A DNA stretch of 64,000 nt from Eledone cirrhosa (Eukaryota). Location: NCBI GenBank assembly GCA_964016885.1, contig OZ024755.1, positions 13,206,001 through 13,270,000 on the forward strand, given 5' to 3'. Under the pieces are notes generated by a model, which was not told the origin of the DNA, did no database searches, and saw only the letters and a program-made list of their open reading frames with translations. Numbering within the stretch: position 1 is the first letter of the stretch; every line of letters starts with the position of its first letter. The translations under genes and the position numbers were made by a program. This document shows positions 1-58,952 of the stretch, piece by piece.

Positions 1-3000
1 ATATTTTACAAAGTTTAGTATTTGCATATTCTGGGGTTGATACACCAGAATATTGATTCGATGGTAAACTAACAACTTTTTTTTTTTTATAGCAATAAAT
101 ATATATTTTTACATATATTTATTCAAAAACCAAAGAGATTTTTTTTTTTCTTTTTTCAGAATGATTTTTTTTTTTTTTTCCAGTTTCAAATTATTCGTGT
201 ATGTTGCTGTTGTGGTTATGCTAATTTAACTGGCTTCAATTACCTCTACCACTAGAATAATTTAATAGAAGAAAACTACTGTAGTTTGCTTGAGGCAATG
301 TAGAATGTGTTATAGCAATGCAGATTAAATATTAAATATAAACAAATAAAGATATTGAAAGGTTATTTTATAAATATCTAATTGAATGGGAGACAAGCAC
401 AATCCATTTAAGAGCATTCCACACAGTTTCTATGTACTCAGTTTCATTCACAAGGTTGTGTCAACCCAAGGCTATAGTAGAAGACACTTTCCTGATATGC
501 CACACAGTGGAATCAAACTCTTGATCATGTAATTGTGAAGCAAACTTCTTGACCATTAGCCATACTGCTCAAGTACTTCTTAACTAGAAATACACAAATT
601 TGTTGCCATTCAATTTACAGAAGTAAATTATTTTTGCCTCTTATTCAGCATATTTGGAACTGGAGTTATTGTAGGTATCATAGATACCCTGTTGAGACTA
701 GGCAGATTTTATTACTTTGAAAATAGTGAAGTTGATTGTGTTGGAAATCTTAAACATTAATTCGTAAAAGACTGAGAGATATAGAACCAAATACAATGAA
801 ATACTTACAGTAGATATAAGCTCACAATGTCTAGTCTATGATTTCTAGTTGCTTATATTATTCAAATGAAAATAGATAAGTAAATGCAAGTACTTTAAAG
901 GCCATCTTCCTTGCAAAATTATGAAAGCTTCATACTCATCATGGAGTCTTTTCTGGAGTAATGTTTTACAGCCTGATGACCTTCCTGGTGCTAACCCCTT
1001 TTAGTTGCCTCTTACAATACACTGAAGTACACTTTAGCTATTCTAGACTGGTTACTCACAACATTGAACAGATTAGAGTGATATACACTTAATTATAGAT
1101 AAAAATATAAAAATTCCAAGCCATCATGTCAGTGACAGGGATTTATGACTGTATATATGTATTTATAGCCATAAATATGTAGATTCCCAAGTTGTGTCAG
1201 GGGAGGGGGGTCTACAGTTAAAAAAAGGTATTCAATACATTGGTAGAGTATAGGCATCTTTATTATATATAAAAATGACTTCTCCAGGACTAGAACTACT
1301 TCATACGAATGAAACCGTTCTACATCTGTGGAAGTCATTTCTATATATAATAAATATCATGTAATGAGTTTTGTTTCTGCAACTGAGTATATACACACAC
1401 ACATATATATATATATATATATGTGTGTGGTTAACTTTATTTGTAAGCCTTCCACATCTACAAATCTGCAAAGTTCTGCCCTAAACACTTTCCATAAAAT
1501 TCTAGACACTTTTTTTTTTTTTTATTCAAGGCCTCTCACTTGCCAGGTTTGTTGCCAAAAATAAAATATGTAAAATTTTAGAAACAAAATATTTTATTTT
1601 TAGTATGTTAACTGTGTTTTTCTTTTTTTTTTTTTTCCGTCTTAAATCTGTTAAAAGATTATCAAATACCACAATACAATTTTCCAAACTTCAGTACGAA
1701 AAGATGGCTACAAATTTATGCTGGCATTGTGTGTGTGTAGCTGGTATCTATGAATATGGAGTTCGTTTCCTGCTAGCAACTTTGTTTTCTATCTTTAAGG
1801 GTTTTCAACCTATTTAATAAGCTATTTTATAGCATCTCAACACATGAGCACACTATTATATATATATAGTTCAAGGAGACAACAAACAGAGGTACAAAAA
1901 GTCTTATTAGTTTCACACTTTATATGGAAAAGGAGAAAGTTCAACATGTTGGGCTTAAGCCCTACTTCAGGAGTACGAAATAGATATGTATGTGTATATA
2001 TGTATGTATATATAGAGAGAGAGCATCTGTACTGGGACCAGGAAGACCTCAAATCAAAAAAATACTCTATATATGGTGAGATGCAAAGTGAGTATATTAG
2101 TGGAATGTAGAGGATCCACCACTGAACTCGATGGTAGATCCTCTTCTTCCACTAATATATATATATATATATATAGTAATGTGATGTGTTGTTTCCTTGA
2201 GCAAGACACTTTATTTCACATTGCTCCAGTTTACTCAGCTGTAGAAATTAGATGATAGGACTGGGGTCCATATCATTCCACTGCAAAGTGGTTGTGGAGG
2301 TGCCACGGCAAAAAAGCCCCCAGCCCACACTGTAAAGTGGACGTGTAGGTGCCACGGAAAAAAAAAGAAAGCACCCAGCACTCGCTGTAAATAAGGTTGG
2401 TGTTAGGAAGGGCATCCAGCTGTAGAAATCAAGCCAGAATCAGTTCCCGTCCCACCCTTGGAAGCAAGGAAAAGCAGACTTATGATGATGATAAACACAC
2501 TTGTCTTATGGGTTTCTATGATACTCTAAAACCTGCACCAAATTAAGAGCTTCTATACAGTGTATTGTGTCAAGTTAGTAATCGTTGCTATTGGTGACTG
2601 TTTACTTTGATGTTTCATTGACATTAGTGGCTTATTAAAATACTTTTGATAAGACACTGACACCAGCAATACTTTGAAGTAAATAGTTACCTTTAAAAAC
2701 ATGTATGTATGTCTGTGTGTGTATATAGGTATATATACATGTGTGTGTATATATATATATATACATGTGTGTGTATATATATATATATATATATATAGTA
2801 ATAATAAATGTGACTAAAATAAATATATGTATGTATGTATATATATATAATAATTGTTTCTACTTTTGGCACAAGGCCAGCAATTTGGGGGAAGGGAAAG
2901 TCGATTGCATTGACTCCAGTGTGTTACTGGTGCTTAATTTTATTGACCCCATAAGGATGAAAGGCAAAGTTAACCTCGGCGGGATTTGAACTCAAACTGT

Positions 3001-5665
3001 AAAGGGCCGTAATTCTATGCTGCAAGGCATAGTCTCCGGCTGTCTACCGATACTGCCAATCCAACCAATTATTATTATTATTATATATAATAATAATAAT
3101 AATGAAATTATTGTGTACAGTGTTCAGGTGCACTACAACTCATCAAAGGTGCATGTATAGTACATAGAATAATATACATATATATGACGTGTGTCTGTAT
3201 ATATATATATACACATATGTGTGTGTATGTAAAGTCATGTGCTGATGCACAGAGATGCTATTAAAAGCTGATAGAGTGAAGACCCTTAAAAGTGGAAAAA
3301 GGAGTTATATATATGGTGTGTCTTGTTCTTGAGCAAAACAGCTTATTTCACATTGCTTCAGTCCACACTACTGGCCGAAATGAATTTTACCAAGGATTCA
3401 ATGGACCAGGATTTTCACATGCTAAATATCCTTGAGAACTATACTAAAACTATGTGAGTCTATGGAATGCTCAGCCACTTACATGTTAATTTCACAAGCA
3501 GGCTGTTCCATTGTTCAAACAACTGGAATACTCTGATGGAGATCCAACACACACATATATACTCTCTCTCTATCACACACATATATATATTGGCCTTCCA
3601 CATGCTAACGACCCACCGGGTTGTATTGGGACCCACTAAATTGGCGAAACATGCTCCTGGTGAGTGTGTACATGTGTGATTTAGGTGAGGATGGTTTTTC
3701 ATTTCAGTTTATACTTTTAATTTTAATGTTTTACCAATGCCTCTAGTAACTTATATTCTTCTCATGCTGGTGGTTCGAAATTCCTGTAATGAAAAACCCA
3801 CTTTCCTGTGTCTTTCCCCCTCTATATAATATATTGTATATATATATATACACACACACACACTCGTACACCTGGTTCTAATTTGGTTCTACATATATTT
3901 AGATGTTTTTGGTATGCAGTTCCTAAATACTTTTAGTGCTTCCTCAATTCCATTCTTCAATAATATACTTTATTATATAGCATCTATGTTTATGATTTTA
4001 CATATAAAAACATGGAAGTGTTGAATACTTATCAGTGAAGTTTGTAGAGTCCGGTATATATGTTTATATATATATATGTATGTCTGTGTAAAAAGTAAAC
4101 AGAAATAAAGCAAATGACACAGTATAATGAAGAAATATATAAGTTTAATGCTTGAAATAATAGGAAATGCACCTTAATGTTTCGGTCAATAGTCCTTCAT
4201 CGGAGGATAGAATGAGAAATAGAAAAGTAAAGAGTGAGAAGTGTTTTATCATCATCATCGTTTAACATCTATCTTCCATGCTAGCATGGGTTTATCTTCT
4301 GTCATAATTTTACACAAGATCCATTATGTTCTAAATATTAGCTTATAATGATAAAATTAGTTATTCTACTAAATTTTCAAAATTCTTGATTATTTACAAA
4401 ATTTATTTGAAAACATAGACTTTCATCAGAAATATAGTTCCAAAAGGGTTAAAGAATTTCACTGAGAGTTTAAAATTTGTTGACTGCCCTCAATCTAGTT
4501 TATCTGGCCTGATAATGTTGTGAGTAGGTGGTGGGGACTGCTACTTGCAGTTTGGGGGGTAACATGAGAGAGCTGGTTGCTAGGTGGGAGTCAATGGTAG
4601 ATGAGCTGAGCTGTCTTGTAAAGGAATTGGCTAGATCCCTACTAAAGGAACTGTTCTTTCTCTGATACTCAATACAGACATACAAATATTTACATAGATA
4701 CACATTTATGCTGGTTTAATAGTAGTAATTTCAACTTTAAAATAGTCTACAATAATATACACTTGAAATTGTGATATATACTTCCTTCCTTGGATATTTT
4801 AAACAATCACTATACTGTACACACAAACACACACTTTCATACTCATGTACATACACACTCATTTACATGCTTGCATACACACATACATTCACTCATGTAC
4901 ATACACACATGCACTCATCTACATATACATTTGTGTAAATGCATGCACTCATATTTAGTATGCTGATTGTTATTAAATCTCTCCACTGGACAAAACTAAT
5001 TTTTTAAAAAAAATTTTTTTGTTTTGTTTTGTCTTTAAAAAGAAAAAGGTCATTGTTGAGGATTAAAACATTTATTTTTATGTCTAATTGGCAAAATCAT
5101 TAAAGCATCAGGCAAAATGCTTCACAATATTTGTTCCATGATAACAATAATAATAATAATAATTGTTTCTACTTTAGGCACAAGGCCAGCAATTATGGAG
5201 GAGAGGAAAGTCAATTAAACCGACCACAGTGCAATACTGGTCCTTTATTTTATTGACCCTATAAGGATGAAAGACTAAGCTAACCTCTGCGGGATTGAAC
5301 TCAGAACATAAAGGACTGTAACTATGTCACATAGCATGTTGTCCGTTGTCCAACGCTCTACCAATTCTGATATACAAAGCCTGGGGAGAGGGGAAAGTCA
5401 ATTATGTTGACCCCAGAAGAATGAAAAGCAAAGTTGACCATGGTGATATTTGAATAATTGACTTTCCTCTCCCTCCACAAATTACTGTCCTTGTTCTTAA
5501 ATTGGAAATCAGTCGATAAAATAAAGTACCAATCATGCGCTGGGTAATTGCTGGCCTTGTGCCAAAAGTAGGAACATTTATAGTTATATAGAATGTGTTT
5601 TTTCCTTCGAAAGTTTCATAATTGAAACTAAAACTACGATGTGAGACAATCTTCTTCATCTGTAT

Positions 5666-58534: not shown

Positions 58535-58595
58535 GCCACCTGAAGAGCCCAGGCTATCATAATTGATAGTCCTAAGTGAAATATGTATAACTGAG
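58535..58595 (+). ncRNA. Decayed type I hammerhead motif
   Basis: CTGAAGA-gcccAGGCTATCA(taat)TGATAGtCCTaagt-GAAATATGTATA; core intact, stem I eroded. Confidence 0.5.
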
Positions 58596-58952
58596 TTTAA
58601 AATAAACCTGAATCAACTGAATATGGCCTCCGATCTTTTATTAATATATATATATATATATATATACATATACGTGTGTGTGTGTGTGTGTATATATATA
58701 TATACACACACACATATGTATGTATGTGCATATGTGTGTGTATGTATTGAAGCCAAGCTGTATCTGCCACTCCTTGATGTTTATAAATAGATGTCATCAG
58801 TGGAGAGAATTTCTCATCACTCAACTATTGCAACGTTATTCAATATTTGTTAATGTTCACTTTCACCAGGATGTTTATTACATACAGTTTTCTGTAGTGA
58901 ATGTCTTTCCGAAAGATATGCTAGGGATACTAGTTTAAACAATGATGATGTG

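What the first reader, a model, noticed from the sequence alone, without database searches (positions are those of the whole stretch)
1262..58660. Dispersed (TA)n-embedded fold-back mini-elements built around hammerhead ribozymes
Seen: at least 8 short inverted-repeat elements (about 1262-1350, 6896-7226, 22570-22680, 22784-22956, 25697-25812, 43884-44073, 51712-51876, 53481-53620, 58345-58655), from about 6 different sequence families and mostly flanked by (TA)n. Most contain CTGANGA...GAAA cores or half-cores with pairable stems. Established: Penelope-like retroelements (PLEs) carry type I hammerheads in their pseudo-LTRs, form inverted terminal copies, and some target (TA)n. Inference: this genome hosts a dense, diverse population of non-coding, ribozyme-bearing PLE derivatives (retrozyme-like). 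Several have long stem II helices rather than the minimal PLE form, and they seed long dsRNA hairpins into introns and UTRs.
Basis: partly seen in the sequence, partly recalled or inferred. Interest (0 to 1): 0.85.

Follow-up and report, generated by a model that had tools for sequence, protein, structure and literature searches.

The report
Hydra-type Penelope retrotransposon fold-back remnants
The short palindromes in this octopus-like DNA are real and are most likely doubled-back, broken-off 3' ends of a known jumping gene (Hydra-type Penelope-like elements) with mostly decayed hammerhead-ribozyme motifs, and several share with coral and sea-cucumber relatives a small conserved hairpin that may set where the element's reverse transcriptase starts copying.

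Summary
All nine fold-backs exist (7 families); 8 of 9 abut a TA-run and 8 of 9 carry type I hammerhead-derived sequence, but only two cores are intact with all stems and one element (43884) shows none. They are asymmetric: one arm stops at (TA)n, the other usually runs on into a tail, and in the one multi-copy family the fold-back point differs per copy. That is the published 'inverted 5'-truncated copy plus tail' of Penelope-like elements, not a MITE or a tandem retrozyme. Five tails hold a bulged hairpin also present in published Hydra-clade consensi. A metagenome scan found the same hammerhead+hairpin unit in 52 of 120 loci, 12 of 39 behind a Hydra RT-EN ORF end; models built only from those loci hit the window elements (E 1e-8 to 3e-3). 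In 21 of 22 such loci the tail-less arm ends 3-9 nt before the hairpin, so it likely positions reverse-transcription start; I found no paper describing it. Long stem II is normal for PLE hammerheads; intron/UTR location is unsupported; the fold-back is predicted to silence the ribozyme. No parent ORF was linked in this genome. Verdict: new members of a known kind, with one testable new cis-element.

The parts
1200..1357 (-). Family A copy: fold-back (arms 1256-1304 / 1309-1357) holding only the 3' half of the hammerhead; tail on the low side with bulged hairpin at 1249-1230
6884..7270 (+). Fold-back (arms 6884-7060 / 7062-7238), complete hammerhead with long stem II in both arms (7125-7174 +, 6997-6946 -), GAAA changed differently in each; (TA)n left; tail with decayed hairpin 7239-7263
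7370..7500 (-).
   Evidence: model R2 E 0.019
7608..7664 (+). Decayed family A tail facing outward
   Evidence: (77% over 62 nt to the 53481 tail)
19910..20350 (+). Probable decayed 5' unit: tail-hairpin remnant near 19985-20010 followed by a Hydra-like ORF N-terminus (WK motif region 20115-20201)
   Evidence: tblastn E 0.015, HMM i-E 0.027 versus 0.28 best in reversed control, sequence; weak
22518..22699 (-). Family A copy: fold-back (arms 22560-22625 / 22633-22699), hammerhead cut in stem I/core; tail on the low side, (TA)n on the high side
   Evidence: model R2 E 0.0033
22745..22960 (.). Fold-back: + arm has an intact hammerhead (22862-22917) and ends at (TA)n; short - arm starts at the predicted cleavage site and carries the tail hairpin 22779-22759
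   Evidence: model R1 E 1.1e-8, R2 E 4.2e-6
25697..25880 (+). Young fold-back (arms 54/55 identical), 3' half of a hammerhead, (TA)n left, tail hairpin 25818-25841
   Evidence: model R1 E 2.2e-4
43845..44073 (.). Fold-back with a short one-sided extension and microsatellite flanks; no hammerhead or tail hairpin recognised; origin unassigned
   Evidence: model R2 E 0.68 only
51708..51895 (+). Fold-back with the best hammerhead (51817-51856: 5-bp stem I, 6-bp stem II, palindromic stem III); left-arm copy damaged; no tail hairpin, another repeat follows
   Evidence: not hit by R1/R2
53476..53690 (+). Family A copy: fold-back centred 5-8 nt before the core, hammerhead in both arms (one different core change each; 53557-53595 +), (TA)n left, tail hairpin 53629-53648, tail to about 53680
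   Evidence: model R2 E 1.2e-6
58336..58668 (+). Fold-back with (TA)n at both ends, no tail; right arm has intact core (58540) and GAAA (58578), long stem II, decayed stem I; about 290 nt past the stop of a kelch-like gene on the - strand
43110..43257 (.).
43710..43780 (-).
   Evidence: (E 0.068)

Best explanation
The fold-backs are most likely severely 5'-truncated insertions of several Hydra-clade Penelope-like retroelement (PLE) families, in which the same hammerhead-bearing 3' end was likely copied twice and joined head-to-head inside a (TA)n tract. Shown: two arms of the same sequence, one ending at (TA)n, the other usually extended by a tail with a bulged hairpin (RCTC-YRY-loop-RYR-TW-GAGY-AC); a variable centre; the same unit behind and in front of Hydra RT-EN ORFs in other animals' DNA. 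Inferred mechanism: the element's GIY-YIG endonuclease cuts both strands at (TA)n; the reverse transcriptase primes from both ends on two fixed sites of the tandem RNA, one 3-9 nt 5' of the hairpin (tail-less arm) and one about 35-40 nt 3' of it (tailed arm); both cDNAs stop early and are joined at their 5' ends. The hairpin would be the protein's binding/positioning signal. The genomic products are likely dead ends: they decay neutrally and the antisense arm is predicted to mask the ribozyme.
For: Asymmetry and variable centre. Published PLE anatomy: inverted 5'-truncated copy, tail at one end, high truncation (PMC8557442); Hydra clade inserts in (TA)n, always has hammerheads, and occurs in Octopus. 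Hydra-2_Amil and Hydra-2_Ajap 3' ends and the Hydra-1_Ajap 5' end hold the same hairpin. Metagenome scan whose pattern held only the hairpin's 3' strand: 52 of 62 hammerhead-folding loci have the 5' strand and paired inner stem; Hydra ORF C-terminus within 600 nt upstream in 12 of 39 such loci versus 0 of 33 loci with neither feature, ORF N-terminus downstream of the tail in 7 loci; L009 holds a whole 705-aa ORF with RWK, DKT, CxCX5C. Inverted tail-less copy in 21 of 56 hairpin loci versus 1 of 33, ending 3-9 nt before the hairpin in 21 of 22, as in the window. Models built only from those loci rank window elements first. Two RT start sites bounding the tail, both-strand cleavage and a predicted dimer were reported for a Poseidon PLE (PMC11167929). 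Host genes are 89-95% identical to Octopus proteins.
Against: No genome was available, so no window family is linked to its own full-length ORF; the only ORF remnant in the window is weak (i-E 0.027; none of 121 proteins reaches E 0.01). Elements 51712, 58345 and 43884 have no tail hairpin; the full model misses 1262 and 51712 and scores 6896, 25697, 43884 and 58345 only at E>0.1, so their clade rests on hammerhead form, TA flanks or family membership. 43884 has no recognisable hammerhead. The published Hydra-1_Obim hammerhead differs from all window elements. The variable centre rests on one family with four copies. The loose hairpin motif is not enriched by count in the window (10 versus shuffle mean 6.75) and was defined from these elements. 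The role of the hairpin is inferred from position and conservation only.
Confidence: 0.85

Rival explanations
1. They are dedicated non-autonomous, ribozyme-bearing palindromic elements (retrozyme-like) that are themselves transcribed, self-cleave and are re-copied by a PLE protein.
For: Non-coding, hammerhead-bearing, many families; animal retrozymes are PLE derivatives (bioRxiv 10.64898/2026.07.22.740005); no parent ORF linked in this genome; they retain the tail hairpin that a PLE protein might recognise.
Against: No head-to-tail hammerhead arrays, the defining retrozyme layout; family A centre differs in every copy; 7 of 9 lack an intact ribozyme; stem I pairing probability 0.0 in the whole element for both intact cores; identical architecture grades into ORF-bearing copies in other animals.
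Confidence: 0.08
2. They are ordinary MITEs or fold-back DNA transposons inserted at TA.
For: Short, inverted arms, TA flanks; 43884 and the unlisted 15665 hairpin show no ribozyme and may be of this kind.
Against: One-sided tails, variable length within a family, hammerhead cores far above shuffled palindromes, match to models of Hydra 3' ends.
Confidence: 0.03
3. The inversions arose after insertion (fold-back repair at fragile (TA)n) or are assembly artefacts, on top of simple truncated PLE ends.
For: (TA)n tracts are break-prone (recalled); very similar arms in 25697 (54/55) and 15665 (31/31).
Against: Most arms differ by 8-23% with independent changes, which artefacts do not give; the outer end of the tail-less arm is fixed 3-9 nt before the hairpin in 21 of 22 unrelated loci, which random repair would not give.
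Confidence: 0.04

Closest known systems
Hydra clade of C-terminal EN+ Penelope-like elements (Craig et al. 2021, PMC8557442)
   Same: (TA)n target, type I hammerhead near the 3' end with short palindromic or near-palindromic stem III, inverted 5'-truncated copy, tail at one end; tail hairpin present in three published consensus ends; clade already known from Octopus bimaculoides.
   Different: The window families do not match the published Hydra-1_Obim hammerhead; some have longer stem II/III loops; tails are about 60-70 nt rather than 30-40; the conserved bulged hairpin and its fixed distance to the tail-less end are not mentioned in the passages and supplements I saw; density here is about 16 pieces in 64 kb.
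Poseidon_Ac PLE of the green anole (Frangieh et al. 2024, PMC11167929)
   Same: Tail bounded by two ends; hammerhead shortly upstream; AT-rich target; a stem-loop at the initiation region.
   Different: There the ORF starts inside the hammerhead and initiation is in an AC-rich stem-loop within the ORF; here the hairpin lies in non-coding sequence 80-140 nt before the next ORF start, and initiation was not measured.
Animal non-LTR retrozymes (bioRxiv 10.64898/2026.07.22.740005)
   Same: Non-coding, type I hammerhead, PLE-related.
   Different: Retrozymes are head-to-tail tandem units; these are head-to-head, single, variable-length and mostly decayed.
MITEs
   Same: Short, inverted arms, TA flanks.
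   Different: Asymmetric ends, variable centre, retroelement RNA motifs.

Membership tests
Hydra-clade PLE | Insertion into (TA)n | tested here: met
   TA-run >=8 nt at an arm end in 8 of 9, background 8.9%
Hydra-clade PLE | Canonical type I hammerhead near the 3' end | tested here: met
   2 intact, 6 decayed or truncated, 1 none
Hydra-clade PLE | Inverted 5'-truncated copy adjoining the 5' end, variable truncation | tested here: met
   variable centre shown for family A only
Hydra-clade PLE | Tail extension at one end only | tested here: met
   one-sided extension in 8 of 9, none in 58345; recognisable hairpin in 5
Hydra-clade PLE | Single ORF with RWK, DKT, CxCX5C linker and C-terminal GIY-YIG | tested here: inconclusive
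   no ORF attached to any of the nine; weak N-terminal remnant at 20115-20201; motifs met in the metagenomic relative L009
Hydra-clade PLE | RT phylogeny within Hydra | not testable with these tools
   no genome, no RT for these families
Hydra-clade PLE | Partial tandem (pLTR) arrangement | tested here: inconclusive
   only the decayed unit at 19910-20350 suggests it; seen in 7 metagenomic loci
non-LTR retrozyme | Head-to-tail tandem units each with a hammerhead | tested here: not met
non-LTR retrozyme | Fixed monomer length within a family | tested here: not met
   family A copies differ in 5' extent
non-LTR retrozyme | Expression as circular or self-cleaved RNA | not testable with these tools
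   no RNA data obtained
MITE | Terminal inverted repeats define both ends; uniform family length | tested here: not met
   one-sided tail, variable centre; 43884 unresolved
MITE | Target-site duplication | tested here: inconclusive
   cannot be read inside (TA)n; no empty site seen
type I hammerhead ribozyme | Self-cleavage | not testable with these tools
   51817 folds with stem I alone (P 0.84-1.0) but not in the whole element; 22862 does not favour stem I even alone

The most novel reading that the evidence does not exclude
The bulged tail hairpin is a clade-wide RNA signal, conserved from corals to octopus, that the Hydra RT-EN protein binds and that fixes both priming sites, one just 5' and one about 35-40 nt 3' of it; double priming from the two ends of a cut (TA)n then makes head-to-head fold-backs the routine product, strewing octopus genomes with hundreds of thousands of unrecognised dsRNA-forming hairpins (about 5% of this window).
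Probability: 0.4. Interest if true: 0.65.

Novelty: new member of a known kind. Interest (0 to 1): 0.42.

Why it matters
The class, its hammerheads, inverted truncated copies, tails and presence in octopus are published, so the elements themselves are not a new system. What is useful: (1) a short, covarying cis-element at a fixed distance from the insertion end gives a direct handle on an open question, how PLEs choose their internal reverse-transcription start sites and why they make inverted copies and tails; (2) it gives a diagnostic for re-annotating such palindromes, which tools may file as MITEs or unknowns; (3) if the density here (16 pieces, 3,135 nt, 4.9% of the window) is typical, Hydra-type remnants are a large source of potential double-stranded RNA in a lineage known for heavy RNA editing (recalled; not tested here).

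Tried and rejected
Rfam: no hammerhead family at gathering score or among the 150 of 202 rows shown at E<=10; top rows are microRNA models matching microsatellites or generic hairpins. ORF listing, tblastn and HMM: no PLE ORF next to any of the nine. Sequencing runs: 7 of 10 listed runs hold part of the queried stretch, no RNA holder listed; no reads were laid, so empty sites, copy number, expression and editing remain open. Viral pattern scan: 2 loci, neither with hammerhead fold or hairpin. Pfam does not recognise the L009 ORF; its identity rests on the Hydra motifs and on precomputed RT and GIY-YIG accessions on a few homologues (accession names recalled). Loose hairpin motif not enriched by count in the window. 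Earlier findings: none. 43884 was read in both orientations for a hammerhead without a consistent fold. An apparent compensatory change between the two arms of 51712 is one pair, half of it a CpG change, and was given no weight. An early impression that the kelch gene had exons on both strands was my misreading (one search puts all on -).
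Full report
Setting. The window is AT-rich animal DNA full of microsatellites and short repeats. A CDKL kinase exon is 89% identical to an Octopus sinensis protein and a kelch exon 95% to an O. bimaculoides protein, so the host is an octopus; the species was not determined. Coding exons map at 19474-11238 (CDKL, -) and from beyond the window down to about 58960 (kelch, -); a zinc-finger gene on + ends near 41368 (its upstream exons near 33-38 kb are read from the ORF list only). 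No whole genome is held.

Observation. All nine listed elements are among the 19 local inverted alignments found after masking microsatellites; arms agree in 77-98% of columns. Cross-comparison gives family A (1262, 22570, 53481, plus 7370-7500 and a tail remnant at 7608-7664) and six singletons. Eight of nine have a TA-run of at least 8 nt at an outer arm end, against 8.9% of random windows. A strict type I hammerhead descriptor gives 4 hits, two in fold-backs (22862, 51817), against a shuffle mean of 0.41. Allowing one core mismatch gives 13 hits, five in fold-back intervals that cover 3.5% of the window (four elements), against 0.013 in shuffled palindromes; one of the eight outside hits (43772-43731) is itself a hammerhead ending at (TA)n. 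Reading both arms: intact in 22784 and 51712; one different core change per arm in 6896 and 53481; intact core with decayed stem I in 58345; truncated in 1262, 22570 and 25697; nothing recognisable in 43884. Rfam models do not detect them.

The elements are asymmetric: one arm stops at (TA)n, the other continues into a tail before microsatellite resumes (58345 has no tail). In family A the outer ends are shared but the centre falls in stem II (1262), at the core (22570), 5-8 nt before the core (53481) or is absent (7370). Five tails from four families contain a bulged hairpin, RCTC-YRY-loop-RYR-TW-GAGY-AC, just beyond the end of the tail-less arm (5 of 10 motif hits; the loose motif is not enriched by count, 10 versus 6.75, and was defined from these elements).

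Literature. Craig et al. 2021 (PMC8557442; passages, section 11, supplement parts 2, 52, 53 and searches) describe PLE insertions as highly 5'-truncated, often with an adjacent inverted truncated copy and a 30-40 bp tail at one end, and define the Hydra clade: (TA)n target, hammerheads universal, one family from O. bimaculoides. The hairpin is visible in the 3' ends of their Hydra-2_Amil and Hydra-2_Ajap consensi and at the 5' end of Hydra-1_Ajap, loosely in two others; the Hydra-1_Obim consensus stops before a tail and its hammerhead differs from those here. Cervera & de la Pena 2014 (PMC4209133; parts 1-2 of 4) report long helix II, palindromic helix III and opposite-strand pairs 100-700 bp apart as typical of truncated PLEs. 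Frangieh et al. 2024 (PMC11167929; parts 1-2 of 4; supplement text search empty) show for an anole PLE both-strand cleavage of AT-rich DNA, two internal RT start sites bounding the tail, a predicted dimer, and that hammerhead cleavage is not needed in vitro. The retrozyme preprint (10.64898/2026.07.22.740005; part 1 of 5 and passages; supplements not seen) defines retrozymes as tandem units. Penelope-like elements are abundant in octopus, with 31 recently active families in O. vulgaris (PMC13282606 and PMC8967140, passages); PMC8969392 passages repeat the general anatomy.

Independent test in other animals. One metagenome scan for the two hammerhead cores plus only the 3' strand of the hairpin returned 118 loci from 13 of 64 parts of the collection. 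Of 120 loci (with 2 viral), 62 fold as type I hammerheads, 73 have the unasked-for 5' strand with a paired inner stem, 52 have both and 37 neither. Among loci with at least 250 nt upstream, an inverted copy lies upstream in 12 of 39 (both), 9 of 17 (hairpin only), 3 of 7 (hammerhead only) and 1 of 33 (neither). L009 carries a whole 705-aa ORF with RWK, DKT, YRDD and CxCX5C ending 95 nt before the hammerhead; its C-terminus is found within 600 nt upstream in 12 of 39, 0 of 17, 2 of 7 and 0 of 33 loci of the four groups, and its N-terminus downstream of the tail in seven loci, so the tail is the start of the next tandem unit. The 73 hairpin loci form 24 families at 80%; in 21 of 22 loci with an inverted copy (9 families) that copy ends 3-9 nt before the hairpin, and in the three largest families the tail ends at a fixed point about 35-40 nt after it. 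On 18 of 19 non-redundant representatives (L035 left out for a long loop insertion) the three inner pairs show 10 double-sided changes, 0 of 500 shuffles as high; caveat: my filter required two inner pairs and the outer four never vary, so only the third inner pair (17 of 18 paired, 3 double changes) is free of selection, and relatedness inflates such counts.

Back to the window. Models built only from those 18 loci and run over all but about 100 bases of the window rank the elements first: tail model, 22784 E 1.1e-8, 25697 E 2.2e-4, 53481 E 0.06; full model, 53481 E 1.2e-6, 22784 E 4.2e-6, 22570 E 0.0033, 7370 E 0.019 (E-values rough). They miss 1262 and 51712 and score 6896, 25697 (full model), 43884 and 58345 above 0.1. 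A decayed hairpin near 19985 is followed by the window's best Hydra ORF match (20115-20201; tblastn E 0.015, HMM i-E 0.027, reversed control 0.28; none of 121 proteins reaches E 0.01): suggestive only.

Mechanism. Shown: two copies of one 3' segment joined head-to-head, fixed outer ends, variable centre, (TA)n flanks. Inferred by analogy with the anole PLE: cleavage of both strands at (TA)n, priming from both ends at two fixed RNA sites flanking the hairpin, early termination and joining of the two cDNAs. The hairpin's conservation and constant offset make it the likely positioning signal; this is untested. The products are probably inert: in the whole element stem I has pairing probability 0.0 (forcing it costs 46 and 22 kcal/mol for 51712 and 22784); alone, the 51817 ribozyme folds correctly and the 22862 one does not. 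No head-to-tail hammerhead pairs occur in the elements (the 58428/58540 pair are opposite-arm sequences of one palindrome). None of the nine lies between mapped coding exons; 58345 is about 290 nt past the kelch stop, behind an AATAAA at 58879, so UTR location is open.

Novelty. The system is known. I found no description of the tail hairpin: searches returned 0 papers, searches returned 4 and 11 listings (titles and abstract starts seen) without an evident match; Repbase and older subscription papers were not searchable, and the scan's earlier notes held nothing. Verdict: new members of a known kind (confidence 0.85), interest 0.42, carried mainly by the hairpin as a testable lead on PLE priming.

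Noticed in passing
   Followed up: partly
window 44111-44205: 16-bp-arm fold-back after TA-rich repeats followed by a tail with a decayed version of the bulged hairpin.
   Followed up: partly
window 15665-15729: Perfect 31-bp-arm hairpin at the end of a SINE-like repeat inside the CDKL gene's intron; no hammerhead seen.
   Followed up: no
window 4105-4211 (-): Hammerhead-like core with one change (model R2 E 0.1), no fold-back; possibly another PLE end.
   Followed up: no
window 19910-20350: Decayed Hydra-like 5' unit about 500 nt upstream of the CDKL start codon, on the opposite strand.
   Followed up: partly
window 57307-57356 and 43375-43418: Weak tail-hairpin-like matches (E 0.14 and 2.1) without an obvious hammerhead.
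   Followed up: no
window 51998-52447 (-): 149-aa open frame that looks like the C-terminal end of a LINE ORF2 (recalled resemblance; no Pfam hit).
   Followed up: no
window 51450-51630 and 53300-53450: Two copies of the same SINE-like repeat each end in a microsatellite directly followed by a fold-back (51712, 53481): microsatellite tails of SINEs seem to serve as landing sites.
   Followed up: no
L004, L011, L017, L022, L032, L034, L038 and others: Many metagenomic contigs end within 2-31 nt upstream of the hammerhead core, as expected if fold-backs break short-read assemblies, so such elements may be undercounted.
   Followed up: no
P0001 homologues: 3581 of 8000 scored proteins match the Hydra-type ORF at E<=1e-20, mostly unnamed: the clade is far larger than the 27 families in the 2021 paper's table.
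   Followed up: no
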